A stretch of DNA of 64,000 nt from the NCBI GenBank assembly GCA_038087875.1, contig CM075977.1, forward strand, positions 115,816,001-115,880,000, in the 5' to 3' direction. The stretch is from Malacoraja senta (lineage: Eukaryota). The translations under genes and the position numbers were made by a program. The notes beneath the pieces were generated by a model. The model saw only the letters and a list, made by a program, of their open reading frames with translations. It did no database searches and was not told where the DNA came from. Positions 777 through 63,585 of the stretch are shown here, piece after piece; the stretch's first letter is position 1, and each line of letters opens with the position of its first letter.

Positions 777-1151
777 TTGTTACTCCCAAAGAAGTTATTT
801 GATTGTCAGAAATAATTTTTAAAAAATTCGGGCACGGAGCTGGGATTTTTTTTTTTACAAAGGCTACGGAAGTCTTTAGAATTCTAGCCACGTTAGTGTG
901 GCTATCACTAACTACACTAATTGTAGACATAGTTTTTTTTCTTTCACCCTATACTAACCAATTCTATCACTTTTTTCACTTTAAATATTTTTATAACTTA
1001 ATGTTTGAATGGAAAAACAAGACTAATACAAGGAGATGTGTTCGGAAGAGCGATGTATATGATTTTAAATTCATCTATTTGAGGTTCGGGAGCAGGGTCA
1101 GGTTTTATGTGTTGCACCTTCTGCTCGGTTATAGACCACCTTAGAAACAAT

Positions 1152-4100
1152 ATGCAAGATGTTAATATGACAAGAGGGGGTCAGGGAATAACATTTTGTA
1201 GTTGGAATGTCAAGGGAATCAATGAACCAATTAAGAGAGGTAAAGTTTTGGCACATCTAAATTCAATCAAAACAGATATAATATTCCTTCAAGAAACACA
1301 CCTTAAAAAGGAATCTCAACATAGACTTAAAGCTAAGTGGATCGCTGAATCATATCATTCCTCTTTTTCCCATAAGTCCAGAGGAGTTGCAATATTAATT
1401 CGTAAAGGAATACCTTTTACGAATTCATCAACAATAGCGGATATTGATGGTAGATATATTATATTAGTTGGAGAGTTAAATGGAGAAAAAGTGATTCTTC
1501 TTAATGTATATGGGCCTAATTTTGATAACCCTATGTTTTTTAATAAAACATTTAATAAAATTCCTGAATTTACACAATATAAATTAATAATTGGAGGAGA
1601 CTTCAATTGTACATTAGATTCATACTTAGATAGATCATCAAGGCAAAAAAAAGTAAAATCTCAATCAAGTGTATTTTTAAATTCATTTATTAATACCACT
1701 AATATTAAGGATGTCTGGAGAATTGAAAATCCAACTGGACGGGAATATTCATTTTACTCACCAGTACATAAAACATACTCAAGAATAGATTATTTTTTAG
1801 TTGACTCCACGTTTATCCCATTTACTTATAACTCAAAATACCATAATATTATAATCTCAGATCACGCACCTGTAACATTCATGATTAAATTAAATGGAAT
1901 GTCCGAGAAACAAACATATTGGAGATTTAACCCACAAATTTTGAACGAAAGATCATGCCAGGAATATGATACTAAACAGATTCAAATATTTTTTTAGGTA
2001 AATGACAACCCTGACACACCTACTTCTCTTATGTGGGAAACGTTTAAAGCGTTTGTTCGAGGTGCATTAATTTCTGCTCAAGTATTTTATAATAAAGAGA
2101 ACAGGATTAAACAACAAACATTGGAAAGTGAAATCAAGCAACTAGATATAGAAAATGCGAGAATGCCATCTATTTTAAAACATAATAAAATTGCTGTATT
2201 GAAATATAAATTAAATAAAATGTATTCAGAACAAGTAATAAAACTTTATCAAAAAACCAAACAATTACATTTTGAATTTGGAGACAAACCACAAAAACTA
2301 TTAGCACGTCAGTTACGAAAAATGGAAGGGGAAAAAATAATTCATAAAATTAGAACGGAGACAGGAGAATTATTAAAAATGCCCAAGGATATAAATGAAA
2401 GATTTCTCCAATACTATCATAATCTTTATTCAACTAAAACTATAGTACAATCAGAAGGAATAGCAGATTTTTTACTAAAATGTAATTTTAAAGGTTTAGA
2501 TTCAAACGATAGAGAATTATTAGAAAGGGAGATTACGATAAAGGATATTGAGGAGTCTATTGGCTCTTTAAAAAATGGTAAAGCAGTAGGACCAGATGGT
2601 TTAGGCTCTGAATTTTATTTAAAAATTTATGACTTGCTCTCCCCACGTTTACAAAGGCTGTATGAGCATATCTATACTCAACAGAAACTTCCAGATACTT
2701 TAAATGAATCTATAATAACACTTATTCCTAAAGCTGATAAAGATCCGGAAGATCCGGGATCATATAGAGCAATTGCACTTTTAAATACAGATCAGAAAAT
2801 ATTAACTAAAATACTAGCGCATAGATTAAGTACAGTGATGAATAAATTAATACACCCTGACCAAACAGGCTTTATTCAGAAACGGTACTCATATTATAAT
2901 CTAAGAAGATTATTTAATATTATTTATTCTAAGAGAATTATTAATGAAGATCTAGCAATAATCTCACGACGCTGAAAAAGCATTTGATCAGGTTGAATGG
3001 TCTTATTTATTTTCGGTGATGGAAAATATGCAGCTAGGGGAGAAATTCTGCACATGGATAAAACTGTTATATACAAATCCTACGGCTAGAATATTAACAA
3101 ACCAAAGGTTGTCATCTAAATTCAGCCTATCTAGAGGTTGTAGACAAGGATGCCCGTTATCTCCATTATTATTTGCGCTTGCTATTGAGCCACTCGCAGA
3201 AAGAGTTAGGGGTCATCCGGAAATACATGGGTATATTACAAAGGACACAGTGAATAACATTTCTCTATACGCAGATGATGTACTAATTTACATTACAAAA
3301 CCAGAAATTAGTATTCCAAACTTATTAAAGCTAATAACCCAATTTGGTTCACTCTCAGGATACAGAATAAATTGGAATACAAGTGAAATTATGCCAATAA
3401 GGGAACATAACAAACAGATAATACAACAATTTCCATTTAAAATATTAAATGAAAAATTTAAATACCTAAGATATATACATCATTATTTAAAGCAAATTTT
3501 CCCCCATTACTGAACAAACTACATAAGAATATTCAATACTGGAAAACACTTCCTATCTCAATGGTTGGCAAAATTAATGCCATAAAAATGATTTTTTTTT
3601 ACCGCAAATATTATACCTTTTTCAGACAATTCCGATATATTTGTCAAAAAACTTTTTTTTTAAATTGGACTCCATTGTTAATGATTTTATCTGGGATTAT
3701 AAGAATCATAGGATAAACAAAAGACATTTGTGTAAATCAAAAATAAATGGAGGCTTGGTTTTACCCAACTTTCTGTTTTATCTTTGGGCAGTTAATATTA
3801 AAAATATGAATTTCTGGTTGGAAGAAATAGATCAACAACCAGATTGGTTAAAAATGGAAAAGGAAGATTGTTTACCTTTTGATATCGGCTCGATATTATT
3901 TGCTACATCTAAATTAAACAAAAAAAATTATAGGGAAAACCCTATAATATTTAGTGCTATACGAATTTGGAAACAATTAAAAAAGACATTAAAATTAGAT
4001 AATTTATCACTTTTTCTTCCAATTGTGAATAACCCTTTGTTTAAGCCCTCATGGTTGGACAGGGGTTTTACACAATGGAAGAATTATGGAATTAAAAATA

Positions 4101-4915
4101 TGGGACAACTTTACAAGGAAGGCACTTTTCTGACATTTCAGGAGTTGCAACAGACTTATGGACTCCGAGGAAATAATTATTTCAGATATCTTCAATTCAG
4201 AGATTATGTAAAATCGAATACTCAAAATTTTCGAATTAGAAATTCAGAAATTCTTGAAGAATGTTGGAATAAACATCCTAATACAGAAAAATTAATATCT
4301 TATATATATAATATCTTATTAGACAGTGACATTCCATCGACGGACTTACATAGACAAACATGGGAAAAAGAATTAAATCAAATAATAACGAAAGATACTT
4401 GGGAAGAAAGTTTACAACACATACATCGATGTTCATTAAATGCCAGACATTCTTTAATACAATTTAAAGTAATACATAGGTTACATTATTCAAAAACAAA
4501 ATTACATAAAATCTTTCAACATATCTCACCTATATGTGATAAATGTCAACATTTAGAAGCTACCTTATCTCATATGTTTGCAAACTGTATAAAAATTAAA
4601 AAATTCTGGGTAAATATTTTTAGTATAATATCTAAAGTGACCAGCACACAATTGGACCCGGATCCAAAATTAATAATACTCGGAACATTAGAATTAAATC
4701 AAACATTTACAACAACACAAAGTAACTTTATTGATTATAATATAATAACAGGAATAAAAATTAATTCTAAAATTTTGGAAAGGCCCTACAACCCCCACAA
4801 TCAAAATGTGGATTATAGAAATGACGGAGACCTTAAACGTGGAAAGAATCAGATTTTCCCTGTTGGACAAACAGGAATTATTCGTTGGAACATGGTCTCC
4901 CTTTATTGATTATTT
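1152..4915 (+). pseudogene. L1 ORF2 (endonuclease-reverse transcriptase), disrupted by a stop and several frameshifts
   Basis: SWNVKG, LQETH, GGDFN, SRIDY, SDH (APE); GPDG, YRAIALLN, GCRQGCPLSP, LYADD (RT); CDKC-x8-H-x4-C knuckle. ORF pieces 1107-1997, 2031-2975, 3016-3513, 3641-4909. Confidence 0.93.
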
Positions 4916-5328: not shown

Positions 5329-5675
5329 CATAGAAACATAGAAAATAGGTGCAGGAATATGCCATCCGGCCCTTCGAGCCAGCACTGCCATTCAATATGA
5401 TCATGGCTGTTCATCTAAAATCAGTACCTCTTTCCTGTTTATTCCCCATATCCCTTGATTTTGCTAGCCCCAAGATCTAAATGTAACTCTCTCTTGAAAT
5501 CATCCAGTGAATTGGCCTCCACTGCCTTCTGTGGCAGAGAATTCCACAGATTCACAACTCTCTGGGTGAAGAAAATTTGTCCTCATCTCAGTCCTAAATG
5601 GCCGACCCTTTATTCTTAAACTGTGTGTGTCCCGTGGTTCTGGACTCCCCCAACATCGGGAACATTTTTCCTGCA
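5329..5675 (-). mobile_element. CR1 LINE 3' fragment
   Basis: (CATAGAAA)n tail plus the CR1 3' end shared with 22224 and 61329. Confidence 0.9.
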
Positions 5676-10658: not shown

Positions 10659-10858
10659 NNNNNNNNNNNNNNNNNNNNNNNNNNNNNNNNNNNNNNNNNN
10701 NNNNNNNNNNNNNNNNNNNNNNNNNNNNNNNNNNNNNNNNNNNNNNNNNNNNNNNNNNNNNNNNNNNNNNNNNNNNNNNNNNNNNNNNNNNNNNNNNNNN
10801 NNNNNNNNNNNNNNNNNNNNNNNNNNNNNNNNNNNNNNNNNNNNNNNNNNNNNNNNNN
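10659..10858. other. Assembly gap (200 N)
   Basis: N run. Confidence 1.
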
Positions 10859-34410: not shown

Positions 34411-34555
34411 CCTTTTGAGGGATAATGTTGATGAAGCCTTTGGAAATTGTTGCAGTAGGTATATTGTGCAATCATGGTGTTTTGAAGGTGAAGGGAGTGA
34501 ATGATCAGAATGGTGGATTGTTTGACAGTTTCATCTTAAATGGTGTAAAGCTTAT

Positions 34556-35029
34556 TGTAGTGGCCATTTGGCCTGTTTTGCATGTCATTGAGGATGGCAT
34601 GTGCCTTTAAATTTTGGACTGCCTGTTATATTGTGGGTGGGATTTATGACTGTTTTTGGGTGTGTTTGGAGCTTAGATGCTTGGTCAGAAGTTTAGTTTT
34701 TAGATTAGTTTGGAGAGACGATGGGGAAGGTTAACCCTTCTACCATGCGGGCCAAATGCCAGATCTTGCCAGTGTTACGGAGACACGAGGAATAAGCTGG
34801 AGTTCGAAGAAGATTGTAGTAAAATTGTCGGAAGCAGTTTGGATGCATTTTACCGTTTTCTATCAACAATAAAGCATTTATTCATCAAAAGACTGTTTTG
34901 AAGCCATGTCTGAGAAGAAGTTCTGGAGGTCTCTGTGAGCTCGCATGCGTTTAGAAGACTTCAATCATTCTATTCCATTTAGCGTCTGGGGTGCTAATTA
35001 CCTGAAAGATATGAAAATCTGCCGCTACA
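34556..35029 (+). repeat. 5' LTR
   Basis: TGTAGTGGC...GCCGCTACA with AATAAA at ~34868. Confidence 0.95.
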
Positions 35030-35086
35030 TTAAGTAGAAGGTAACCTCCGGCAGGGGGGTTAAATACCAGTCCCAGAGAGTGGGAC

Positions 35087-35194
35087 AGAAGATTAAGTCG
35101 AAGCAGGACGACCAGGCTAAGATCTCGGTGAGGTTTAGCCAGAAGATTAAATCAAAGCAGGACGACCAGGCTAAGATCTCGGTGAGGTTTAGCC
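35087..35194 (+). repeat. 54-bp tandem duplication in the LTR-element leader
   Basis: AGAAGATTAARTCRAAGCAGGACGACCAGGCTAAGATCTCGGTGAGGTTTAGCC x2, plus a partial third copy. Confidence 0.9.
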
Positions 35195-35627
35195 AGAGGA
35201 GAAAGTGGTTCCAGGAGGAACTGAAGATAAAGATCTCGGTCAGATGAGGCCTTGAGGTCTCTCAACAGCATCGAGACTTATCTGAAGACGTATCACAGGA
35301 TTTGTGAATACATATCGATTATTACTCTTTGAATTGAAATCACAGCTTTAATTAAAAGACTTCTGTAACAGAGCCACCAGAAGGTGTTTTCTCCAGCTTG
35401 TCTGGGGAAAGCAGTCCGACCTTGGATTGTTTTGAATCGCTTGTGATAAGCGCATTCCATTTGAATTAGTATCATCTTTTTGCACCTGGAGTTAGAGAGA
35501 TGTTCTCTACATTATCAGTATGTTATGATTTTGAAAGAAATGTTGACAAAACAGAGCCACAGCTACTAGCAGACTTTTGTTCAATTACTTTAAAGACTTG
35601 GTAATCTGCCACAACCTCTTTAAAATC

Positions 35628-38230
35628 ATGGAATTAGAAGAGGAAGAAAGAGCTATGCCAGATGAACCATGTGGTGGTAAAGAAAGACCCAGACAACTTA
35701 AAGAAACAGATAATGCACATACTGCCTGCTTGAGAGAAACCAAGAGAGAGATAAATGAATTATGGTTACAGGTTAACAGATTCATTGATACACAGAAAAA
35801 ACTAATGGAATCAGAACAGAATGTGATCAAGGTGAAATCTAATATGAGCCAACTATGGAACCTCTGCGAAGAGGTTGCAAAGAAACAGAATGTACTGCTG
35901 TGTTCACAGCCGTCTCGGGAAGAAGCCAGAAGACACGCCCAGTGGTGGGAAGACAAATGGAAGATATTTAATGGTTTCATGGATAAGGCAGAGATGTGGT
36001 TATCTAAAATTATATCACAACTTACGAGCTTAGTAGCTGGCAGTGCGAAGCAACAAGGTGCCAGAATGGAAGGTGAAAATTCAAGCAGTGAAGCATCTGA
36101 CAGTTCAGATGATGAGTCTCCTGCGAAAGTCAAAGGACAACAAGGTTCGTACAGTGCTGTACCACCTCCCAAAATTCAGAATGGAAAAGCAGGCGTGACC
36201 AAGAAGAAACTAGCTGTAGGAGTGAGTAAAATGGAAATCAGTGACTTGTCAGATGAGAACTCAGACAGTAGTGATGAAGATGCAACCCTAAAACCTGCCA
36301 CAATAATTGCACAGAGGAAAGCTGACTCCACGCTGGCCAAGGTGGCTGCTGCCGTTCAGAAGCCTGCGGTCAAGAAGGCCAGTACCAGCTCGGACAGCGA
36401 GTCCGATTCTGAAAGTACCGAAGAATCTTCAAGCGATGGAGAGCCTCAGTTGAAGACCCCCGTAGCCCAAGTACGAATGGCAAAGGCCACGCATTCATTA
36501 CTGCCTGCAAAGTCTGTGGCCATAAAGCCGACAGCAGCAGCAGAGACTGCAGTAGCAGCTCAGATAGTTCAGGATATAAATCTGGTTATTCAGCCAGTTC
36601 GGTTTCAAGGGCTTCTGCTCGATTGGGAGTTAAAGCTGAGCTAGCTGCTCTCTCAATAGAAGCGGATGCCATGAAGAAGAAACATGAGATCGAGCGGGAT
36701 CAAGAAGCCATGAGGCGACATCAAGAAGAGATGACGTGACGGCAACAAGAGATGACACGACGGCAACAAGAGATGACGCGACAAGAAGATGAGATGAGGC
36801 GACATAAGGAACAACTGGAATTAGACACAAAGATGGCGGTGGCCAAAGCAAAGAAGGAGATACTGGAAAGTGAGGGGTCAAGATGCAGCTCTAGATCGTC
36901 AAGGACGATGGGCTCTGGATCAAGAAGAAAAACTGCTCGAAATGAATCAGCAGTTGGATCAATTCCACAATCGAGGTCCACCGGATTTCTAGGCTTTGAA
37001 AACCTATGGGAACAGAGGAAGATGGGTGAAACTTCATCTCAGCAAATGAGTGCTAGATCAAAACCAATTACTATTGGAGCGTCTGTGGATGCTCGAGACA
37101 AACCAATTGCGGACCACGCTTTTTCGAGGCCTGGTGCACAGGCTCGAGCAAGCCAATTTGAATCACAAAAGCCTGTTTATGAATAGGTGGAGCCAAGACG
37201 GATGGATTATTGGCACTGTTGAATAGGCAATCTGAATTCAATGAGATCATAGCTCAACAAAATACCTCTCTCATTCTACCACCAGTAGAAATTCCTACGT
37301 ATGGTGGAGATCTGTTGGAGTATGAAACTTTCGTAAGGGCATTAGAAGAAATATTAGAAACGGAAGTTATGAATGAGAAGGAGCGCTTACGATTTCTGTT
37401 GAAGTATACAAGTGGAAGTGTGAAAGCACTTGTAGAAAGTTGTCAGAAAGAGCAAGGCAACCAGGGCTCTAAAAGGCGAGAAGATTACTTGAAGAACGTT
37501 TTGGTGAGGAACAGAGGATTGCTAACGCTTACATGGAGAAGGCCCATGCTTGGAAAGGAATTAAACCAGAAGATGGGGAAGCATTGAGTGATTATGCAAT
37601 ATTTCTGAGAGATTGTTGCAGCTTGATGAGAAATCTCGGCCACATGGAAGAAATGAATCTTGTGAGTAATACTAGAATCATCTTGAGAAAGTTGCCCAGA
37701 AGACTGAGAGAAAAGTGGAGAGACGAAGCAGGCAAAATTAGAGATGAGAGGAACCAAGTAGCCAGGCTACCAGACCTGGTGGAATTCTTGGACAGGGAAG
37801 TATGGAACATGTTAGAGCCAAAGATTACAAACCAATGGCAACTAACAAAGGTTCTACCTTTACCAAAACTGAAGAAAGATCTGAATCTAAGAGGCGTAGT
37901 TTGCTATCACGACCGTACCTCTGGAAAAGACAGATGGAAGAAAAATAAATGTGTCTACTAGCAAGCAAATAGTATTTTGTTTGTTATGTGATGAAGTTGG
38001 TCACACCATAAGATGGTGTCGTAGATTCAAGATGAAAGAATATGAAGACAAGATGGATTTCTTGAAAGAGAAGGGAATCTGTTTTGGATGTTTGTAAAAA
38101 GGACATATGGTGAGAGACTGTAAGAGTCCTATAATTTGTTATGAGTGCAAACAATATCATCCTGAAGCACTTCACATTGAAGAAGAGCTGCCAGAGCACT
38201 GGGAAGAAGAAGAAGAAGAACCGGTACAAA
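35628..38230 (+). pseudogene. BEL/Pao gag (frameshifted) with coiled-coil N-terminus, low-complexity insert, DUF1759-like core and Cys/His knuckles
   Basis: LPPVEIPTYGGDLLEYETFVRA, RLRFLLKYTSG, RKLP..LREKW, DLVEFL; C..C...H, CFGC...GHMVRDC, CYEC...HPEALH. Confidence 0.85.
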
Positions 38231-38329
38231 TGGATGATGAATTACCAGAGCAAATAGAAGAAGAAGAACTGGAACAAACAGAACAGGGCGAGAAGCCAAC
38301 TACTAGAAATGCTATCACCTCGCCTCAAG

Positions 38330-39845
38330 TAACTGCTCATATTGGGGCCGGGGTAGAAGCTTGTAATTTTTCTATCTTACCAGTACAGGTAAGGAACAGT
38401 AAGACGAATACAGTGTTGCAAACATGCTTTTCTGGATCACGGAAGTTCGAATACCTTTTGCACAGAAAGCCTGACGACGAGACTGAATATCAGAGGAGAA
38501 GAGACTAAGATTTGATTACGTACCATGACTAAAGATAAAGAGAGCTGGAGTCATTGCATTACGAATATGGAGATATCCAGTTTGGACGAAGATAATTTCA
38601 TACCGATATCTGAAGTGTTTACGCATGGAACTATGCCTGTTGATCGTCAAAATATACCAAGACATGAAGACTTGAAGCAATGGCCTTACCTAAAGGATGT
38701 CAAGATATCTGAAATAAATTCTAGTGTTGATCTACTGATCGGAACGAATGTTTTGAAGGCTTTGGAACCTATACAGATTGTTAGGAGCCAAGGCGATGGA
38801 CTGTATGCCATGAAAACCCGACTTGGATGGATTATCTATGGGTCCTTGAAAAGAAACCACAAAATCGGAAATCAGATGAACTGTCCTGCCATTGCTATTA
38901 ATCAAATGTCTACTGATGAATTAGAAAAGTCGGTGATGAAGCCATATAATCATGACTTTAATGAAAGTACCAGCAAGGAATCCGAAGAGATGTCGAAAGA
39001 AGAGTTGAAGTTCATGGATGTTATGAACTACTCAGTGAAAACTGACAGACACTATTGTGTGGACTTACCTTTCAAACAAGAAAGTGTTAATCTGCCGAAT
39101 AATCGTCGTGTGGCAGAGCAACGTACCCAGACTTTGAAACGCAAGTTTGGCGAGAATAGTACATTTCATGAATTAAGAATCTCTTTGAAGAATAATTTCT
39201 ACAAGGATGATTACTTAAAATCCAGGTCTACTGAGCAGGAAACAATTCTACCAGTAGAACATCTGACTTCTCTTTGAAATAAGGGAGGATTTATACTTTC
39301 GAAGTGGAACAGCGACAATTGTGAAAGCATTCCACTAGCTAACAGCCAAAGAAACCAGAGAGTTGGATTTGGACAAAGACGATCTGCCAATGGAAAGATG
39401 TTGACACAGAAGAAAATTCTACAAATTAAGTTTCCAGAGAACTGACAGTGAACCGCTTCTTAAGCGAGAAGAAATGCATCAATGAACTAAAATCTCTCTG
39501 CAAGCCAGACAGAGAATGGCCAAAGCTTGAGCTGGGATTTGAAATCTCTTCTAATGACTCGGACATTAAATCAAACTTAACGGTGAACTTTATTGTTAAA
39601 GATCCTGTTATTCTTTTGAAGGATTTTCATACTTCAACTTTACTGTTACATCACATCCATGAGTTGATCGGACATGGAGGAAGACGTTTCATGCTGTTAA
39701 AGCTTTGGACTATTATGTTTTGGACTATATACTGGGTATCATGCCTGATTTAAAGGGTTTGGTATGCACGGTACGACTTGAATTAAAACCACTGTTGTAA
39801 TAAGATTAATAACTTAGTTGTGCTTGTTTCTAGAAGGCAAAAGTG
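38330..39845 (+). pseudogene. BEL/Pao pol remnant: protease region present; RT, RNase H and integrase largely deleted
   Basis: ILPVQV, AFLDHGSSNTFCTE, DLLIG, KTRLGW, LPFK..LPNN; then NNFYKDD, GGF.LSKW, HIHELIGHGG and C-terminal GLV..V...LCLFLE. Confidence 0.85.
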
Positions 39846-39902
39846 AAGATGGAAGAATCGATGAAGAATTCTGATTGCGTATATATAGTGCATGCTAATT
39901 TT

Positions 39903-39978
39903 TCCTCATTAGTATAGTGGTTTAGTATCCTCGCCTGTCACGCGGTAGACCGGGGTTCAATTTCCCGACGAGGAGCCA
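39903..39978 (+). tRNA. tRNA-Asp(GTC) gene/pseudogene with encoded CCA, inside the LTR element
   Basis: TCCTCATTAGTATAGTGGTTTAGTATCCTCGCCTGTCACGCGGTAGACCGGGGTTCAATTTCCCGACGAGGAG-CCA; cloverleaf with two stem mismatches; anticodon GTC at 39937-39939; TTTT at 39984-39987. Confidence 0.92.
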
Positions 39979-40093
39979 CAGGGTTTTATTCCCTGACCTT
40001 TTGCTTTTAATATATGTTAAGCCTTTATGACCACTTTTTTAATGTCTATTAGTAATTGCCTCATTATATACACGGAACAATTAGGGGCCGGTA

Positions 40094-40591
40094 TGTAGTG
40101 GCCATTTGGCCTGTTTTGCATGTCATTAAGGATGGCATGTGCCTTTAAATTTTAGACTGCCCGTTATATTGTGGGTGGGATTTATGACGTGTTTTTGGGC
40201 GTGTTTGGAGCTTAGATGCTTGCGCAGAAGTTTAGTTTTTAGATTAGTTTGGAGAGGCGATGGGGAAGGTTAACCCTTCTATCATGCGGGCCACATGCCA
40301 GATCTTGCCAGTGTTACGGAGACACGAGGAGTTTGCTAATGTCTAAAGTAATAAGCTGGAGTTCGAAGTAGTAGTAACGAGTCGGAAGAAGTTTGGATGT
40401 ATTTTACCGTTTTCTATCAACAATAAAGCATTTATTCATCATAAGACTGTTTTGAAGCCATATCTGTGAAGAAGTTCTGAAGGTCTCTGTGTGAGCTCGC
40501 ATGCTTTTAGAAGACACCCCCTTCAACCATTCTCATCTATTTAGCAGCTAGGGTGCTAATTACCTGAAAGATATGAAAATCTGCCGCTACA
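40094..40591 (+). repeat. 3' LTR
   Basis: Highly similar to the 5' LTR, with substitutions and small indels. Confidence 0.95.
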
Positions 40592-42094
40592 CTTATTGAG
40601 TGTTTTTGGACTTGCGCCTTGCTGATGCTGGATCGGCTTTGGGGATTCTGGAATTGAGAGATTTGTTGTCGGATTCCCTGCCTCTAATCTATTAAAACCA
40701 CTGCATTTGTACCAGATCATCTGCGTAGTTCAGATTCTGGTCACTGGTGAATCCTAACGCAGAATGTGATTGTCAGAGAAATTCAGTGGCGGTATTGCTA
40801 ACAAATGTCAAGGGCGATTGAAGATGATTGGGCCTGGGATGTTGCCAAATGAACCTTTACAGTGATTTTAAAAAATATATAGGTTGTACTGTTCCTACAG
40901 ATGAGATTTACTTTCTGCTGAGGTTTTATTCAAACTTTCGGCACATTCAATTTCATTCAATTTACATGAAAGCAAAAGACAACTTGTTGGAAATACTCAG
41001 CAAATTATTAAGATGTAATAATTCTCACTATCTAGATGCTGCCTGGGCTGCTGAGTGTTTCCTCCATTTTCTATTTCTTACAATTCAAATTAGTTGTCAC
41101 TCCACTGTGTAGCCACCTGCACTGGGCACCAGATGGCTCTATATAGCTACTTTTACTCTCAATTTTGTCTCCAGATAACACTTTTTTCTTCTGACCTACT
41201 CACCATTGCACGCATCTTTGTTTGTGTGTGTGTGTGATCATTCACTAATTGCCACAACGAATTAGATGATCATGTAAATATTGCAGGAATGAAGATGCTA
41301 CACACGGATGGCATCAATGAATGTTAACAATAACTGGGAAGTGGAGAAGTGAACAATGAAATATCTGGACTATAATTGCCATTTATGAAAATAATGGCAT
41401 TTTATACTCGTCTACTTTTAACTTAGTCAGTGGAACCAGCATTAAGGACAAACCCACTAAGGTTGATTTTCACATAGACAAAGCAAGAAATTGTGCATTT
41501 TCTATCAGACCATTGGTAATAAGATGCCCCAAAAGTTAACTCCACAGCAATGCAGAGCACTAATGCTTCTGGCACTCACTGAAGAAAGTTTCGGTCTCTC
41601 CTGCCATTGAATGCCAACCCAATACTCTTTGAGGTTGACAAAGTGAATGACCACATTATGTTATGTTTTTTTCTGCTGACTTCTGTGCTAGAATATATTA
41701 GAAATCAGCTGGAGGGTTGAGATGAAGAATCTTTCTGGAGATTCAAATTCACAGCAGCCTTCATTGCCCCAGAGTTAAACTCATTTTGTTCTTCTGCACT
41801 TTTTTATTTTTGTTTGTACAGCTGGTGAATGCAAATATTATACATTAAAATGTTATTTGAGAATAAAACACTCAAAATTCATTTTTGAGAATGCTACAAA
41901 CTTCTTTGCTATCATTCAAGCACATGCTCTGGTGATGTAGAACTCATACAATAAAGATACATCAGAGTAATGGCAGAAATGGAACGTTATTTATGAAGAG
42001 TGGCAGTATACTTATTTCTACTGGAAAAAAACTATGGAAAGTAGAGTTAAATAAAGTTTTTGAAGATATAGGTTTTGATAAAGAAAAACTATTT

Positions 42095-46524: not shown

Positions 46525-49500
46525 TGCCACTGCTACACGGGTGGGTTTAAACTAAATAGTGTGGGGGGAGGAGACAAATTGGAAATACAAGGATGGAGTT
46601 AAAGGGAAAGGGAGTATAGGAAAAGTTAAGAAAGACACCAGAATTAACGGGGCAGAAAGCTCACGAAGGGAGAGGAGAGTGTAACGGCAGATTTGTATAT
46701 CGTTCAAGAGATTACTCCCTCTAGCCGCCAAATGGACAGCATGGTTAAGGGGAATATCTTTTATATGCATGCGAGCTCACCGTCAGAGAACATCAGAGCT
46801 TCTTCACAGACAAATCTTCCAAAACAGTCTTTTGATTAATAAATTCTTTATTGTTGAAGAAAAACAATAAGGTACATCCAAACTTCTTCCGATTCGTTAC
46901 TATAATCTTCATCGAACTCCAGCTTATCGCTTTAAACATTAGAAAACTCCTTGTGTCTCCGTTACAGTTTGCATGGTCAAAGGGTAAACCTTCTCCATGC
47001 TGGTTCCACAGTAAACTAACTAAGCTGCGCAAGAAACCTAGCTCAAAACACGCCTTAAAATACGTCATAAATCCCACCCACAATATAACGTGCAGTCTAA
47101 AATTTAAAGACACATGCCATCATCAACGACACACAAAACAAGCCAAATGACCACTACAGAGAGTATGGACAAGTGAAATAGGAATTGAAGTGAAAGGTGA
47201 GGTGAATAATGGATTTAAAGTATTATATATGAATGCACGAAGTATTAGAAATAAAGTGGATGAGCTTGAGGCTCAGTTAGAAATTGGCAAGTATGACGTT
47301 GTGGGAATTACAGAGACATGGCAGCAAGAGGACAAGGGCTGGAAACTGAATATTCAGGGGTATACGTCCCATCAAAAAAGACTGACAGGTGGGCAGAGAG
47401 GATGGGGTAGCTCTGTAGTGGTCCAAAGGGAAATTCAGTCCCTTGCGAGGGGTGACATAGAATCAGGAGATGTTGAATCAGTATGGATAGAACTGAGGAA
47501 TTGTAAGGGTAAAAAGACCCTAATGGGACTTATCTACAGGCCCACAAACAGTAGCCTGGATATAGGGTGCAAGTTGAATTAAGAGTTAAAATTGGCATGT
47601 CGCAAAGGTAATGCTATGGTTAATATGGGAGATTTCAACATGCAGGAGACTGGGAAAATCAGGTTGGTACTGGACCCCAAGAAAGGGAGTTTGTGGAGTG
47701 CCTCCGAGATGGATTCTTAGAGCAGCTTGTACTGGAGCCCCCCAGAGAGAAGGCAATTCTGGATTTAGTGTTGTGTAATGAACCGGATTTGATAAGGGAA
47801 CTCGAGGTAAAGGAGCCATTAGGAGGTAGTGACCATAATATGATAAGTTTTAATCTACAATTTGAGAGGGAGAAGGGAAAATCAGAAGTGTCTGTATTAC
47901 AGAGCAAAGGGGACTATGGAGGGACCATGAGGGAGGAGTTGGCCAAAGTTGACTGGAAAGATACCCTAGCAGGGATGACAGTGGAACAACAATGGCAGGT
48001 ATTTCTGGGAATAATACAGAAGGTGCAGGATCAGTTCATTCCAAAGAGGAAGAAAGATTCTGAGGTGAGTAAGAGGCGATCGTGGCTGACAAGGGAAGTC
48101 AAGGACAGTTTAAAAATAAAAGAGAAGTATAATATAGCAATGATGAGCGGGAAGCCAGAGGATTGGGAAACTTTTAAAGAGGAACAGAAGATAACTAAAA
48201 AGGCAATACGGGGAGAAAAGATGAGGTACAAAGGTAAGCTAGCCAAGAATTTAATTGAGGATAGTAAAAGCTTCTTTAGGTATGTGATGAGGAATAAAAT
48301 AGTTGAGGCCAAAGTTGGACGCTTGAATACAGAAACAGGTGAATTTATTATGGGGAACAAGGAAATGGCAGACGAGTTGAACAGGTACTTTGGATCTGTC
48401 TTCACGAAGGAATACACAAACAATCTCCCAGATATACTAGTGGCCAGAAGACCTAGGGTGAGGGAGGAACTGAAGGAAATTCACATTAGGCAGGAAATGG
48501 TGTTGGGTAGACTGATGGGACCGAAGACTGATAATCCACAGGGCCTGATGGTCTGCATCCCAGGTTCCCCATGAAGGTGGCTCTAGAAATAGTGGATGCA
48601 TTGGTGATAATTTTCCAATATTCAATAGATTCAGGATCAGTTCCTATGGATTGGAGGATAGCTAAATGTTATCCCACTTTTTAAGAAAGGAGGGAGAGAG
48701 AAAACGGAATAATAGACCAGTTAGCCTGACATCGGTGCTGGGGAAGATGCTGGAGTCAATTATAAAAGATGAAATAGCCGAACATTTGGATAGCAGTAAC
48801 AGAATCGGTCCGAGTCAGCATGGATTTACGAAGGGAAATCATACTTGACTAATCTTCTGGAATTTTTTGAGGATGTAACTAGGAAAATGGACAAGGGAGA
48901 GCCAGTGGATGTAGTGGACCTGGACTTTCAGAAAGCCTTTGACAAGGTCCCACATAGGAGATTAGTGGGCAAAATTAGAGCACATGGTATTGGGGGTAGG
49001 GTACAGATATGGATAGAAAATTGGTTGGCCGACAGGAAACAAAGAATCGGGATTAACGGTTCCCTTTCAGGAAGGCAGGCAGTGACTAGTGGGGTACCGC
49101 AAGGCTCGGTGCTGGGACCGCAGCTATTTACAATGTACATTAATGATTTAGATGAAGGGATTAAAAGTAACATTAGCCAATATGCAGATGACACAAAGCT
49201 GGGTGGCTGTGTGAACTGTGAAGAGGATGCAGGGTGACTTGGACAGGTTGGGTGAGTGGGCAGATGCATGGTAGATGCAGTTTAATGTGAATAAATGTGA
49301 GGTTATCCACTTTGGTGGCAAGATCAGGAAGGCAGATAATTATCTGAATGGTGTCAAGTTAGGAAAAGGGGAAGCACAACGGGATCTGGGTGTCCTTGTT
49401 CATAGGTCACTCAAAGTAAGCATGCAGGTACAGTAGGCCGTGAAAAAGCTAATGGTATGCTGGCCTTCATATCAAGAGGAGTTGAGTATTGGAGCAAAGA

Positions 49501-50974: not shown

Positions 50975-52295
50975 CTAGACCAAGTAGGACCCGTTGGGTC
51001 CCGTCCCCTCAACACGCGGTTGCGGGGGGAGGGGGCGGCCTGCGGCGTCACTCACACACTAACCAGCCCCTCACACACACACTAACCGCCCCCATTGATA
51101 TATTAATATTATTAATTCATTCCTATTAACCCTATCCCCCGCCCTATCCACTCATGCATAGCCTACAACTCACAGGTGAGGCTAGAGAGGGAGGCGCACA
51201 GAGAGGGACGTGGAGGCGCACAGAGAGGGACGCGGAGGCGCACAGAGAGGGACGCGGAGGCGCACAGAGAGGGACGCGGAGGCGCACAGAGAGGGACGCG
51301 GAGGCGCACAGAGAGGGACGCGGAGGCGCACAGAGAGGGACGCGGAGGCGCACAGAGAGGGACGCGGAGGCGCACAGAGAGGGACGCGGAGGCGCACAGA
51401 GAGCGACGCGGAGGCGCACAGAGAGGGACGCGGAGGCGCACAGAGAGGGACGCGGAGGCGCACAGAGAGGGACGCGGAGGCGCACAGAGAGGGACGCGGA
51501 GGCGCACAGAGAGGGACGCGGAGGCGCACAGAGAGGGACGCGGAGGCGCACAGAGAGGGACGCGGAGGCGCACAGAGAGGGACGCGGAGGCGCACAGAGA
51601 GGGACGCGGAGGCGCACAGAGAGGGACGCGGAGGCGCACAGAGAGGGACGCGGAGGCGCACAGAGAGGGACGCGGAGGCGCACAGAGAGGGACGCGGAGG
51701 CGCACAGAGAGGGACGCGGAGGCGCACAGAGAGGGACGCGGAGGCGCACAGAGAGGGACGCGGAGGCGCACAGAGAGGGACGCGGAGGCGCACAGAGAGG
51801 GACGCGGAGGCGCACAGAGAGGGACGCGGAGGCGCACAGAGAGGGACGCGGAGGCGCACAGAGAGGGACGCACAGGCGCACAGAGAGGGACGCACAGGCG
51901 CACAGAGAGGGACACAGATGCCTAGAGAGGGGCACAGTGAGGGACACAGATGCATAGAGAGGGGCACAGAGAGGGACACAGAGGCAGGGGAGCTTGCTGC
52001 CTTTTGGAGCTGAGTTTTCTGGGTGTCCGCTGTCTTTTGTAGCTGGGGTTTCCGATTTGCGGCGTCTTTTGAGCGGGCGGCTCTGCCGCGAGCGGGCAGC
52101 CCTGGGCGACGTGACTCGCAGCGCGTGAACACAACGTGCAGCCATTGTGACGTCATCATCCAAGGCCAGCGGTTTTATTTTCTGTTATTTGAGATTTTTG
52201 AACATTTTGATTAATAACTAGAAATAATGCATGAATTTTTCAGATTTTTGACTTCACAGGATGAATCTCTACAGGAATATATAAAAACTATCGTT
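50975..52295 (-). mobile_element. Second non-autonomous Helitron abutting the first (5' end interrupted by Gypsy)
   Basis: CTAGACCAAGTAGGACCCGTTGGGTCCC hairpin and CTAG end at 50975. Confidence 0.7.
51188..51915. repeat. 22-bp minisatellite, ~33 near-identical copies
   Basis: Unit CACAGAGAGGGACGCGGAGGCG. Confidence 0.97.
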
Positions 52296-53388: not shown

Positions 53389-53588
53389 NNNNNNNNNNNN
53401 NNNNNNNNNNNNNNNNNNNNNNNNNNNNNNNNNNNNNNNNNNNNNNNNNNNNNNNNNNNNNNNNNNNNNNNNNNNNNNNNNNNNNNNNNNNNNNNNNNNN
53501 NNNNNNNNNNNNNNNNNNNNNNNNNNNNNNNNNNNNNNNNNNNNNNNNNNNNNNNNNNNNNNNNNNNNNNNNNNNNNNNNNNNNNNNN
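53389..53588. other. Assembly gap (200 N)
   Basis: N run. Confidence 1.
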
Positions 53589-56165: not shown

Positions 56166-57255
56166 CTACCAGAATTTGTCTGGAAGCATTAGAGACATTG
56201 TTAATCCACCATTTAAATTCCATAATAGGCCCAATTGCATGGGCGTATCAAAATGCCCTGCATTAATCCTTAATGCTTGTACCTTAGCTCTCTGCAAATG
56301 CTGATAATGCAGTGGTCCAAACCTTACAGCTGGAAAAACAGCAATTAATTTGCCCAGCAAGCTTGCCACTTGTCTAATTGAGGGTTGGTACTCTTTAATG
56401 AGCTTAATGCAACCTTCAATTAACTGCAGCCTTTTATCTTTTGGCAAAGTGATTACCATGTGTTCTGAGTTAATGGTAAACCCCAGGTAATCAATTTTTG
56501 TGCTTGGTAATAGTTTCGATTTTTGTGGGTGAATAATTAATCCCACTTTCTGGAAAACGAGCTTAACTCTTGACACTGATGCCTTTGATGTAGCCAAAGT
56601 GTCCCCCACAATCAGAATATCATCCAAATAAGCCATTAATACATGGCCCTCAGCTCTTAGTAGTGCTAAAATTGGTTTGAGCAATATTGTAAATAATCTT
56701 GGCGCTGAAGTTAAACCATTAGGCAATGCTTTAAATTGCCACAATTGACTCATCCATCTAAATTTTAGATATCTCCGATCATTACCATGCACTGCCACAG
56801 AATAATATGCATCCTGCGGATCTATACTTGCCATATAGCATTTTCTTGTGACAAGCTGAATCGCATTTGTAAATGTTTCCATTTTAAAATGTTTATACTG
56901 TACGAAAGGGTTAAGACTTGTCAGATCCAAAATGATTCTACATCCACCATCCTTTTTTGGTCTAGGAAAAATACTTGACACAAACTGATGGTGTTGTTCT
57001 TTTTACACCTTTTTTGCATAATATTTTCAATTCTGCCTGAATGTGCGTATTCTCTTCTTTTGAGAAAATACGTGTCCGGCTTGAAATATGCCGAGTAGGA
57101 GGAATCAAATGTGGAAAGAATTCAATTCTAAATCCCACAATACTGCACAGTATAAACAAATCATTTGTTATTTGTTGCCATTCTTTTAGGAAGAATTGTA
57201 ATCTTCCTCCCACTTGTGGGTGCAAAACATTTGCTATGTTTCTTACCAGACCCAC
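56166..57255 (-). pseudogene. DIRS reverse transcriptase
   Basis: VGGRLQFF..EW, SSIFPRPKKDGG, YLDDILI, YLGFTINS. Confidence 0.9.
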
Positions 57256-58894
57256 CTACCTCAGGGTTTGCCGATGGCAAATGTTGTCCCCTATTCTTAG
57301 TAGGCACATTATAACCTCCACGCATCCCAGGTGCAGTACGCCAACGCGTATATGGGAACGATCGACTTGTTCCTTCTCCAGCACCAGACATCCGTCTGTA
57401 GGGATACTGCCTTCGAATTGATCTGCTCAACATCGGTGGTTTCATCATTCCCACGGGTTTTGCCTCTTCATTCAGGTCTTTTACCCTTTTCGTTAGATTT
57501 TCTCCAAAAAGCAGATTAGGCAGTTGTATATTGGATGGTTTACAGAGCCCTGCAAATTTAGGATGAATATTAGGTCTTATGGCATTCTTACGAATACAGT
57601 TTATTTCAAAGTGCGCACTACACATAAGTGCTAAGGCATTTTGTTGTGAAGCAGATACATGCTCTTCATCCAAACCTCTGGCAAATGCCGTAATGCCTGA
57701 CCGCAGCAATCTCAACACTCGTTGTAACTTTAATTCTTGTGAGCGTAATCCAATGCCCAAATAGCCCCATATTACGTTATTCACCGCTGGGACTGCTAGC
57801 AGTGCACAATTCTGCGGGATTTCATATTTTTTAACATCCATAGTTAATTGCTGGAGTTGATGGGAGAGCAAGTAATTTATAGTCATTGCTAATTCATCTC
57901 CCAAAGGTTCCCCTGTTAATCTGGGAACAGCAAACTTTTGTGTCAGCCCTGGTATTTTAGGCTCTGTTATTGGGCTCTGGTCCTCATATGATTCATCATC
58001 TGAATCTTGATGTTCCTCCTCCTGATGGGAAAGTTCTGGCATCCCTGTTTCAGGTAAATCTAGCCCTGCCTCTTCCATAGGCCTTCGTATAGTAAATTCT
58101 TTACCAGATTCCCCCTGCGCGGGCTCTCCTGTAGGCCCACGGATAGGCAGCCCCGTTTCAGGTGCTGCTGGCGCTGGCTCACATCTAGGCTAACGCTTAT
58201 ATTGTCTTTCTTCTGACATTGTTGGCGCTGGCACTTCTCTAGACCAACGCTTGTACTGCCTTTTTCCTGGCTCTCCTGTAGGCCAACCTATGTATTGTCT
58301 TTTCGCAGACATTTCTGATGGCTCTCCTGTAGGCCAACGCTGTGCCTGTCCCATCCAAGGCACTCCCTGCGCTGTCTCTCTCATAGGCCAACGCGGACTA
58401 AATTCCTCCTGAGGAGGTTCTTGATAAATCATTTTCCCCATAAGGAACTCTAAGCTCGCGACCCTAGCAGCCATAACCTCTGACTGAGGAGGGTTCACCT
58501 CCGGGTCTGACTCATCGGAGTCTGCTTGTCGCACGGACTTTTGCCCGGCCTTGCGCCCCAAAGGCGCTACAACTGTACTTTCGACCGGATCGGGAGTTGA
58601 TGGCCTCGCTGCCACAGACTCCTCTAACGGACGCCCGCTACCCTCAGATACTTGAGGTTTACCTGCGGTACGTCTTCTTCATTTACGCCCTCTCTCCTTA
58701 ATAACTTGCGTGAAGCTCCGCAAACAAGTCTGACGAGAAAGGCCGACCTAGAAGCGAAAGTGAAAGCACCTACCTTCAGACTTTTACTTTGCTCCTCCAC
58801 ACACGGTCGCAACGCTATGCGTCTGACGATATGACGCGTGTGTGGTCTGGCTGGGTTCTTCACGTAGTCACTCACGTGACTCCGAAGTAAAATT

Positions 58895-61328: not shown

Positions 61329-63150
61329 TAGAATCATAGAAAATAGGTGGAGGAGGAGGCTATTCGGCCCTTCGAGCCAGCACCGCCATTCATTGTGATC
61401 ATGGCTGATCATCCCCAATCAATAACCCGTGCCTGCCTTCTCCCCATATCCCTTGATTCCACTAGCCCGTAGAGCTCGATCTAACTCTCTCTTAAATCCA
61501 TCCAGTGACTTGGCCTCCACTGCCCTCTGTGGCAGGGAATTCCACAAATTCACAACTCTCTGGGTGAAAAAGTTTTTTCTCACCTCAGTCTTAAATGGCT
61601 TCCCCTTTATACTAAGACTGTGGCCCTTGGTTCTGGACTCGCCCAACATTGGGAACATTTTTCCTGCATCTAGCTTGTTCAGTCCTTTTATAATTTTATA
61701 AGTTTCTATAAGATCCCCCCTCATCCTTCTAAACTCCAGTGAATACAAGCCTAGTCTTTTCAATCTTTCCTCATATGACAGTCCCGCCATTCCAGGGATC
61801 AATCTCGTGAACCTACGCTGCACTGCCTCAATCACAAGGATGTCCTTTCTCAAATTAGGAGACCAAACCGGTACACAATACTCCAGATGTGGTCTCACCA
61901 GAGCCCTATACAACTGCAGAAGAACCCCTTTACTCCTATACTGAAATCCTCTTGTTATGAAGGCCAACATTCCATCAGCTTTCTTCACTGCCTGCTCTAC
62001 CTGCACGCCAACTTTCAGTGACTGGTGTACAAGGACGCCCAGGTCTCGCTGCACCTCCCCCTTACCTAACCTAACCCCATTGAGATGATAATCTGCCCCC
62101 TTGTTTTTGCCGCCAAAGTGGATAACCTCACATTTATCTATATTATACTGCATCTGCCATGCATCTGCCCACTCACTCACCCTGACCAGGTCACCCTGCA
62201 ACCTCCTAACATCCTCTTCACAGTTCACACTGCCACCCAGCTTTGTGTCATCCGCAAACTTGCTAGTGTTGCTCCTAATTCCCTCTTCCAAATCATTAAT
62301 ATATATGGTAAACAGTTGTGGCCCCAACACCGAGCCTTGCGGCACTACACTCGCCACTGCCTGCCATTCTGAAAAGGACCTGTTCACTCCTACTCTTTGC
62401 TTCCTGTCTGCCAACCAATTTTCTATCCATGTCAATACCCTACCCCCAATACCATGTGCTCCAATTTTAGTCACCAGTCTCCCGTGCGGGACCTTATCAA
62501 AGGCTTTCTGAAAGTCTAGATTCACTACATCCACTGGCACCCTTTCATCCATTTTACTTGTCACATCCTCAAAAAATTCCAGAAGATTAATCAAGCATGA
62601 TTTCCCTTTCATAAACCCATGTTGACTTGGACTAATCCTTTTACTGCTATCCAAATGCCCCATTATTACCTCTTAAATAATTGACTCCAGCATCTTTCCC
62701 ACCACCAAAGTCAGGCTAACTGTAATACACGTTTTCTCTCTCGCTCCTTTCTTGAAAAGTGGAATAACATTAGCTATCCTCCAATCCACAGGAACTGATT
62801 CTGAATCTATTGAACATTGGAAAATGATCACCAATGCGTCCACTATTTCTAGAGCCACCTCCCTGAGGACCCTGGGATGCAGACCATTAGGCCCACGGGA
62901 TTTATCATCCTTCAGTCCCATTAGCCTACCCAATACTATTTCTCGCCTAATGAAAATTTCTTTCAGTTCCTCTACCCACTTAGATCCTCTGTCCTCCAGT
63001 ACATCTGGGAGATTGTTTGTGTCTTCCTTAGTGAAGACAGATCCAAAGTACCTGTTCAACTCTTCTGACATTTCCTTGTTACCCATAATAATTTCACCCG
63101 AGTCTGCCTTCAAGGGACTCACATTTGACTTTGCTTCTCTTTTTCCCTTG
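61329..63150 (-). mobile_element. CR1 LINE, 5'-truncated, young (414-aa open RT C-terminal frame at 61419-62663)
   Basis: QHGFMKGKSC, DFQKAFDKV, PQGSVLGP, FADDTK through GYGEKAGTGY. Confidence 0.95.
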
Positions 63151-63585
63151 TTTCCCCTGTTTCTTTGCTACTCTTTTCATCTTGTTTCTGTCCTTGTGAA
63201 TGCTTATCAAAATAGTTATGTTAGAATATTTTATGGAACTTTGTGCTCAAAGAATGTTGGAAATACTAAAATCAAAACCAAAAAATGTTAGAAATACTCA
63301 GCATCTTGGAAAAACTTGTGAATGATCAGTTGAGCGGAGGAGTAGCATGGGAGATTTTAAATGCAGCTGATAGCATCAAAGAGTGACTGCAGCTACTGGT
63401 ATATAAAAAGCGCAGGCACTAACGGAGGCGCCTATTGAGACTGGTCATGTTGGGAGATGTTATGTGTTGAGGTGCAAATGCTTTGTTGAGGGAAAGTGTT
63501 GAGGTTTTGACTCATCAAACTTTGGCGAGGAGGCTGAATGGAGGGTGGTGGAAAGATAAGGTATGGTCATTTATTTTTGTGTTCA

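What the first reader, a model, noticed from the sequence alone, without database searches (positions are those of the whole stretch)
39880..39990. A BEL/Pao LTR retrotransposon carries its own tRNA-Asp gene just upstream of the 3' LTR
Seen: a full tRNA-Asp(GTC) (39903-39975) lies between the integrase C-terminal remnant and the PPT/3' LTR, in the element's sense orientation. It is followed by CCA and then a T4 run (39984-39987), and preceded by TATATATA (39880-39887). It has no SINE body or tail and no obvious TSD of its own. Known: vertebrate nuclear tRNA genes normally lack encoded CCA, so CCA suggests capture of a mature tRNA by template switching. As I recall, a tRNA gene at this position is reported for a fish retrovirus (SSSV), but I know of no BEL/Pao example. 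Inference: with A/B boxes and a terminator this may be a Pol III unit maintained by the family, acting as a chromatin barrier, a tRNA/tRF decoy or a translation aid. This copy has two stem mismatches, so it may be decaying.
Basis: partly seen in the sequence, partly recalled or inferred. Interest (0 to 1): 0.85.

Follow-up and report, generated by a model that had tools for sequence, protein, structure and literature searches.

The report
Fish retrotransposon carrying a captured tRNA
A dead jumping gene in what looks like a skate or ray genome carries a decayed copy of a finished host transfer RNA near its end, most likely picked up by accident while the element copied itself, and whether its relatives carry it too is still open.

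Summary
A complete tRNA-Asp(GTC) with CCA (39903-39978, + strand) sits in the 3' UTR of a BEL/Pao element (34556-40591; LTR pair 5% apart; CTTAT target duplication), 28 nt after the pol stop. The element is non-autonomous: pol lacks about 830 residues in four gaps.

The Pol III-gene reading is weak for this copy. A T5 run overlaps the tRNA's first base, B-box position 61 is altered, and T4 runs are common here. The cited T4 is the loop of a second T-arm-like hairpin that starts right after the CCA. The tRNA is not the element's primer.

Best reading: the element's reverse transcriptase copied a mature tRNA by template switching before this copy inserted (7 substitutions plus 1 indel versus 2-3 expected; no target duplication), and it has decayed since.

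Family-wide presence could not be tested. No tRNA gene was found in 6 distant BEL loci, but 1 of 5 3' UTRs has a T-arm/acceptor-like match at the pol end. CCA-ended tRNAs inside an LTR element are already published (Culex cqgypsy_1); I found no BEL or 3' UTR case.

The parts
34551..34555 (+). left target-site duplication (CTTAT)
   Evidence: same 5-mer at 40592-40596
34556..35029 (+). 5' LTR, 474 nt, TG...CA
   Evidence: blastn pair with 40094-40591; 24 mismatches in 467 columns, K2P 0.053, 7 gap events
35030..35053 (+). primer-binding-site position, non-canonical: no TGG, not complementary to the carried tRNA
   Evidence: no complement of 6 nt or more to the tRNA 3' end anywhere in the element; 8-nt complement to LTR position 181, p=0.024
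35086..35197 (+). 5' UTR tandem repeat, 54 nt x 2.1
35628..38422 (+). gag (broken by stops and frameshifts), with DUF1759 region and Cys-His knuckles at 37978 and 38080
   Evidence: PF03564 E 3.6e-4, below the curated cut-off; 37-73% identity in pieces to Leucoraja erinacea LOC129715113 = P0002; knuckle motifs
36012..36572 (+). Ser/Ala/Lys/Asp/Glu-rich stretch in gag, about 150 residues longer than in P0002; GC 49% versus 38-39% in flanking coding DNA; origin not established
   Evidence: four searches for a source were empty
38423..39874 (+). pol remnant: protease motif at 38432, pieces of RT, RNase H/integrase linker, integrase zinc finger and C-terminus; four large gaps near 39175, 39390, 39600 and 39705; stop 39872-74
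   Evidence: versus P0012, residues 178-342, 419-636, 712-848 and 883-1188 have no match, 826 in all; C-terminal remnant E 2.5e-5 in a five-sequence database
39880..39887 (+). TATATATA, probably incidental
   Evidence: one of 6 such places in the window; 16-23 nt upstream of the mature 5' end
39899..39903 (+). T5 run overlapping the first base of the tRNA
39903..39978 (+). decayed tRNA-Asp(GTC) copy with encoded CCA (anticodon 39937-39; CCA 39976-78); mismatched pairs 39908:39969 and 39930:39946; B-box departure at 39963
   Evidence: the isolated sequence does not fold as a cloverleaf at minimum energy, z=0.15, which is weak evidence since unmodified tRNAs often misfold in such programs
39979..39997 (+). 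second T-arm-like hairpin directly after the CCA: perfect 5-bp stem, 7-nt loop holding the T4, 14 of 19 nt identical to the tRNA's own T arm, one pair changed on both sides
   Evidence: only other match of 14/19 or better among 127,090 positions of the window; folds
40083..40093 (+). polypurine tract region
   Evidence: directly before the 3' LTR; same type as in L003, L004 and L006
40094..40591 (+). 3' LTR, 498 nt, TG...CA
40592..40596 (+). right target-site duplication (CTTAT)
46680..47158 (-). solo LTR of a related subfamily with its own 5-bp duplication (CTCTC); carries no internal sequence, so it cannot test for the tRNA
   Evidence: 18% different from both LTRs of the element

Best explanation
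The tRNA is a captured passenger. In an earlier replication round of this BEL/Pao lineage, the element's reverse transcriptase, making minus-strand DNA through the 3' UTR, jumped from the genomic RNA (at the T-arm-like hairpin) onto the 3' CCA end of a co-packaged mature tRNA-Asp, copied all 76 nt, and jumped back 28 nt downstream of the pol stop. The product was carried by a non-autonomous, pol-deleted derivative and inserted here. It has drifted since and is not a working Pol III gene or a primer in this copy. Shown: position, orientation, full length with CCA, no TSD or tail, decay, no complementarity to the primer site. Inferred: template switching, capture before insertion, lack of function.
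For: Exact 5' end and CCA with no duplication or A-tail. [quoted passage not shown] The substitutions include no change on both sides of a pair; 4 weaken stems, 1 strengthens one and 2 are in loops, about as neutral drift would give. The lineage rearranges its RNA readily: four large pol gaps, an extra stretch in gag, and 2 of 6 distant loci (L003, L006) that lack the integrase C-terminus yet have LTR pairs 99.8% and 95% alike. Precedent for CCA-ended tRNAs inside an LTR element, not reported in its mosquito relatives: cqgypsy_1. An intact tRNA in a Pol II transcript is cut out by RNase P and Z in cells (PMC6445147); here that would sever the genome from its PPT and 3' end, so an intact cloverleaf should be costly to the element (inference).
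Against: The reference is human; the host's own tRNA-Asp was not available. Two of the 7 differences are loop variants that I recall from other vertebrate isodecoders; without them P rises to 0.05-0.20, so capture after insertion is not excluded. The tRNA is kept whole in an element that lost about 2.5 kb of pol. The adjacent T-arm-like hairpin with a two-sided change and the L001 match at the same place suggest that this site may not be functionless. No second internal copy was examined.
Confidence: 0.5

Rival explanations
1. Old cis-acting tRNA mimic. This BEL branch keeps a tRNA-derived T-arm/acceptor/CCA element between pol and the PPT as an RNA signal (RNA stability, packaging, synthetase or eEF1A binding, or a processing site). 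Homology to host tRNA makes the spot a hot spot for repeated capture; the full-length copy here is the latest refresh and the downstream hairpin an older relic.
For: Second T-arm-like hairpin abutting the CCA, 26% diverged from the first (ten times the per-LTR distance) yet perfectly paired. In L001 the best match of the tRNA in 7.2 kb lies at 5431-5453, at the pol C-terminus and on the same strand: 20 of 24 columns, reached by 0 of 2000 shuffles, and the highest score among 914 tiles of the six loci. It shares the base at 39971 that differs from the human tRNA.
Against: The L001 region was chosen after the match was seen, and whole-locus shuffles of the six loci reach 27-32 against a score of 29. 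The other 4 of 5 UTRs are not convincing (whole tRNA p=0.12-0.61; 3' half p=0.044-1.0), and the L004 9-mer is explained by pairing with its LTR start. The L001 match does not form a good T-arm. The tRNA-like peptide tail of P0019 ranks only 83 of 7062 windows. No tRNA gene in 6 of 6 loci.
Confidence: 0.22
2. One-off retroposition after insertion: a LINE enzyme inserted a mature tRNA-Asp into the already integrated element.
For: The window is rich in LINEs. If two loop differences are host variants, the remaining 5 substitutions are compatible with the insertion's age (P 0.05-0.20).
Against: No flanking duplication, no A-rich target or tail, whereas tailless retropseudogenes were defined by 8-35-nt TSDs and found only in therians and the anole among vertebrates surveyed (PMC5322556; sharks are not mentioned). 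Landing in the 143-nt UTR, in sense and flush against a T-arm-like hairpin, would be a coincidence.
Confidence: 0.18
3. Family-maintained Pol III gene: the element keeps a transcribed tRNA gene as chromatin barrier, decoy or translation aid.
For: Full length, intact A box, anticodon and discriminator; T4 six bases after the CCA. Pol III promoters in LTR elements are known or proposed (Cassandra, Helenus, Ajax; PMC10886601). Damage in this copy could post-date insertion.
Against: T5 at -4..+1 would act as a terminator in the leader; B-box position 61 altered; TATA too close (spacing rules recalled); T4 expected by chance. More divergence than the LTR clock allows and no two-sided change within the cloverleaf. 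An encoded CCA is not needed by a eukaryotic tRNA gene.
Confidence: 0.1

Closest known systems
cqgypsy_1 of Culex quinquefasciatus (PMC3286476; passages and the Osvaldo section read)
   Same: Complete tRNAs with terminal CCA inside an LTR retrotransposon, read by the authors as mature tRNAs incorporated after reverse transcription; not found in the related elements they compared.
   Different: Gypsy (Osvaldo), two head-to-head tRNAs (Lys, Glu) at the 5' LTR/PBS with a 26-nt duplication. Here: BEL/Pao, one tRNA-Asp, 3' UTR, no duplication, followed by a T-arm-like hairpin.
Helenus, Ajax and Cassandra TRIMs (PMC10886601; parts 1-4 of 6 read)
   Same: Non-autonomous LTR elements carrying small-RNA-gene sequence; the tRNA-like part is not the primer and is mostly non-functional as tRNA.
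   Different: There the tRNA or 5S part lies inside both LTRs and is thought to promote transcription of a 0.3-1.3 kb element moved by Gypsy or Copia. Here it is internal, single, 3', in a 6-kb gag-retaining BEL derivative.
Belpaoviridae / BEL-Pao (ICTV profile PMC8742986, whole text read)
   Same: LTRs, 5-bp TSD, Gag with DUF1759, PR-RT-IN order, PPT, size range.
   Different: No 18-nt PBS for tRNA-Arg or tRNA-Gly; pol largely deleted; the profile mentions no carried tRNA.
Tailless tRNA retropseudogenes (PMC5322556; passages read)
   Same: Reverse-transcribed tRNA without A-tail.
   Different: Those are 3'-truncated, L1-made and flanked by 8-35-nt TSDs; this copy is full length with CCA and has no TSD.
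Salmon swim bladder sarcoma virus tRNA between env and 3' LTR (recalled only)
   Same: As recalled, the same position in a fish retroelement.
   Different: Not verified: searches gave no passage on it and the original paper was not read.

Membership tests
BEL/Pao (Belpaoviridae) | Two LTRs with TG...CA ends and a short target-site duplication | tested here: met
BEL/Pao (Belpaoviridae) | Gag and Pol homologous to BEL/Pao, order PR-RT-(RH)-IN | tested here: met
   22 of 26 homologues carry PF03564 and/or PF05380; colinear tblastn pieces; own DUF1759 hit is below the curated cut-off
BEL/Pao (Belpaoviridae) | 18-nt PBS complementary to the 3' end of tRNA-Arg or tRNA-Gly (ICTV profile) | tested here: not met
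   no TGG in the 24 nt after the 5' LTR; the same holds for L003, L004 and L006, so this marks a branch and does not exclude the family
BEL/Pao, Suzu or Sinbad subgroup | Placement in an RT/integrase tree with named references | not tested
   reference elements were not available to the tools; resemblance to fish BEL elements is from hit names and recall
Autonomous LTR retrotransposon | Complete RT, RNase H and integrase core | tested here: not met
   826 residues of P0012 unmatched in four gaps
Functional Pol III tRNA gene | Intact cloverleaf, A and B boxes | tested here: not met
   two stem mismatches and altered position 61; A box intact
Functional Pol III tRNA gene | Readable leader and a terminator beyond chance | tested here: not met
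   T5 at 39899-39903; 5 T-runs in 219 nt
Functional Pol III tRNA gene | Pol III occupancy or transcript | not testable with these tools
   no expression or ChIP data
Helenus (TRIMp3) | tRNA-like sequence inside both LTRs of a short element | tested here: not met
   no tRNA match in either LTR; element is 6 kb
tRNA-derived SINE | Body and tail after the head, many dispersed copies | tested here: not met
   no other copy in the 64-kb window; only this window could be searched, and no SINE library was available
Tailless retropseudogene | TSD of 8-35 nt and 3' truncation | tested here: not met
Self-encoded primer | tRNA 3' end or internal stretch complementary to the PBS | tested here: not met
   no 6-nt complement of the 3' end in the element; no 5-nt complement between the tRNA and the 31 nt after the LTR
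Family-wide feature | Present in independently inserted copies | not testable with these tools
   only a solo LTR in the window; no eukaryotic genome collection open

The most novel reading that the evidence does not exclude
A branch of aquatic BEL/Pao elements that lacks a normal tRNA primer site keeps a tRNA-Asp-derived T-arm/acceptor/CCA mimic between pol and the PPT as a cis-acting RNA signal, renews it by template switching onto host tRNA, and in this cartilaginous-fish family carries the whole tRNA in all copies, while priming its minus strand from its own LTR sequence.
Probability: 0.17. Interest if true: 0.78.

Novelty: new variant of a known kind. Interest (0 to 1): 0.42.

Why it matters
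As a passenger, it is a clean fossil of a mature tRNA copied end to end inside a BEL/Pao particle, which shows what such particles package. It also warns that tRNA-Asp predictions in cartilaginous-fish genomes may include retrotransposon cargo. If the T-arm/CCA motif proves conserved across the branch, it would be a tRNA mimic in the 3' UTR of an LTR retrotransposon, of a kind I did not find described, and a handle on BEL/Pao replication, which the ICTV profile calls poorly understood. One search of the source genome separates these cases.

Tried and rejected
Primer role: rejected, no complementarity. SINE head: no body, tail or second copy in the window. Host tRNA gene or pre-tRNA captured with its flanks: disfavoured by the CCA (1.6% by chance), the T5 in the leader and a hairpin that runs on past the T4.

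Other family copies: the window holds only a solo LTR. The GTDB scan gave 31 pattern matches and 6 confirmed loci, all distant BEL elements, apparently animal DNA binned into bacterial genomes (inference). L005 has no 3' end and was left out of the UTR test; L003 and L004 come from one bin and are not independent; the 3' LTR start of L001 is inferred from the PPT alone.

The 7,861 BEL sequences in Additional file 1 of PMC3118150 could not be read (50 characters returned), which is not a negative. The FASTA supplements of PMC4746887 are unreadable. For PMC6238403 and PMC8220671 only supplement lists were seen. Cluster members of the protein hits and the ESM Atlas could not be queried, so C-terminal tails were examined only in the 26 stored proteins. 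Viral and metagenome contigs stayed unchecked.

P0019 tail as a tRNA 3' end: rank 83 of 7062, kept as a weak lead only. Gag insert as a captured NOLC1/Nopp140 piece (resemblance recalled): no hit or Pfam; low complexity weakens these negatives. SSSV precedent: not verified. PMC554778 has no passage on tRNA or PBS. A wrong PMC id returned an unrelated paper.

Full report
Observation. The tRNA is real. ARAGORN calls tRNA-Asp(gtc) at 39903-39978, the only tRNA in the window, and Rfam scores 39903-39975 at 41.1 bits with two non-standard pairs. It lies in a complete LTR insertion: LTRs 34556-35029 and 40094-40591, CTTAT on both sides, 24 mismatches in 467 columns. The proteins are BEL/Pao: 22 of 26 homologues carry DUF1759 or the Pao peptidase domain, and the most similar is a Leucoraja erinacea protein at 71%. 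A skate or ray host is an inference from that hit and from recalled SINE motifs. The integrase C-terminal remnant is at 39714-39838, pol stops at 39872-74, and the tRNA begins 28 nt later, 115 nt before the 3' LTR.

The element is a non-autonomous derivative. Against the fish protein P0012, residues 178-342, 419-636, 712-848 and 883-1188 have no match, removing much of RT, RNase H and the integrase core. Gag and protease are present but broken, and gag holds about 150 extra low-complexity residues at 36012-36572 relative to the Leucoraja protein. Two of six distant loci show integrase loss with young LTRs (L003 99.8%, L006 95%), so such deletions plausibly arise during replication (inference).

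State of the tRNA. [quoted passage not shown] Two changes break pairs, two leave G.U pairs, one turns a wobble into a standard pair, and two are in loops. None is two-sided. The LTR pair predicts 2.0 (flat) to 3.1 (CpG-aware) substitutions since insertion; P(7 or more) is 0.004-0.04 and P(5 or more) 0.05-0.20. The lower count applies if the two loop differences are host variants, as I recall for other vertebrate isodecoders. The host's own tRNA was not available. The tRNA therefore probably pre-dates the insertion and was drifting, but this is not settled.

Is it a Pol III gene? In this copy, unlikely. A T5 run covers -4 to +1, position 61 of the B box is altered, and the TATA element lies 16-23 nt from the mature 5' end, closer than the spacing I recall for tRNA genes. 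The UTR has five runs of T4 or more in 219 nt and TATATATA occurs at six places in the window. The cited T4 is the loop of a hairpin (39979-39995) that begins on the base after the CCA. It has a perfect 5-bp stem and 7-nt loop, matches the tRNA's own T arm at 14 of 19 bases with one pair changed on both sides, and is the only other match that good among 127,090 window positions. Two 14/19 matches without a hairpin occur in the 45 kb of fetched loci, the feature was noticed before it was tested, and its donor could be another tRNA.

Is it the primer? No. The element has no complement of 6 nt or more to the tRNA's 3' end, and no TGG-type primer site, unlike the ICTV description of the family (whole text). 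In 4 of 4 elements with both LTRs mapped, 8-9 nt of the primer-site region are complementary to the element's own LTR (p = 0.024, 0.17, 0.10, 0.016; two are related). This is a lead for self-priming only.

Relatives. No second internal copy was within reach; the solo LTR at 46680-47158 is 18% away and has no interior. Six distant BEL loci from GTDB bins hold no tRNA gene. Of the five with a 3' UTR, L001 has a 20/24 match to the tRNA's T loop and acceptor 3' strand exactly at the pol end (0 of 2000 shuffles of that region; best of 914 tiles), sharing the base at 39971. The region was picked after the match was seen, whole-locus shuffles reach similar scores, and the other four UTRs are unconvincing. 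A tRNA-like peptide tail in P0019 ranks 83 of 7062.

Mechanism. Best reading (0.5): during minus-strand synthesis the reverse transcriptase jumped from the UTR, at the hairpin, to the CCA end of a packaged mature tRNA-Asp, copied it whole and returned; the copy rode along in a deleted derivative and decayed. An intact tRNA in a Pol II transcript is excised in cells (PMC6445147, passages and first two parts read); here that would cut the genome off from its PPT, which argues against keeping a perfect cloverleaf (inference). Rivals: an old cis-acting tRNA mimic that is refreshed by capture (0.22); LINE-mediated insertion after integration (0.18; no TSD, and such copies were found only in therians and the anole, PMC5322556, passages); a maintained Pol III gene (0.10).

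Known and new. CCA-ended tRNAs inside an LTR retrotransposon are published for the Culex Gypsy cqgypsy_1, at the primer site (PMC3286476). tRNA-like promoters inside LTRs define Helenus (PMC10886601). Six searches of open-licence PMC and bioRxiv (listings seen, selected papers read) showed no BEL/Pao or 3' UTR case. Repbase, Dfam, subscription papers, bioRxiv supplements and the BEL sequence file of PMC3118150 were not seen and could hold one. The SSSV precedent is recalled, not verified.

Verdict. A real feature and a new variant of a known kind. The strong claim of a family-maintained tRNA gene is unsupported in this copy and untested in the family. Interest 0.42; 0.78 if the mimic reading holds (probability 0.17).

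Noticed in passing
window 36012-36572 (+): Extra Ser/Ala/Lys/acidic stretch in gag, absent from the Leucoraja relative and higher in GC. By recall it resembles the repeats of the nucleolar protein NOLC1/Nopp140, which would be a second host-RNA capture; four searches found no source.
   Followed up: partly
window 35034-35041 with 34736-34743; L003, L004, L006: No TGG-type primer site in 4 of 4 elements; each has an 8-9-nt complement of the primer-site region inside its own LTR. Possible self-priming in a BEL branch.
   Followed up: partly
L003 6953-7028 and L004 7432-7517: The 3' UTR holds a reverse complement of the first bases of the 3' LTR, giving a long hairpin that encloses the PPT.
   Followed up: partly
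L001-L006 (GTDB contigs): Six BEL/Pao retrotransposon contigs sit in bacterial genome bins, apparently animal host DNA binned as contamination.
   Followed up: no
window 46680-47158 (-): Solo LTR of a related subfamily with its own 5-bp duplication, next to a LINE endonuclease-like frame (47624-48571).
   Followed up: partly
window about 51060-52080: GC-rich 22-nt minisatellite of 34 or more overlapping register copies, about 99% identical in its core.
   Followed up: no
window 1083-4909 (+), 56166-58189 (-), 61419-63167 (-): LINE remnants with endonuclease and RT domains; the first has a weak zf-RVT match and looks L1/Tx1-like.
   Followed up: no
window 10659-10858 and 53389-53588: Two 200-N assembly gaps, far from the finding.
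   Followed up: no
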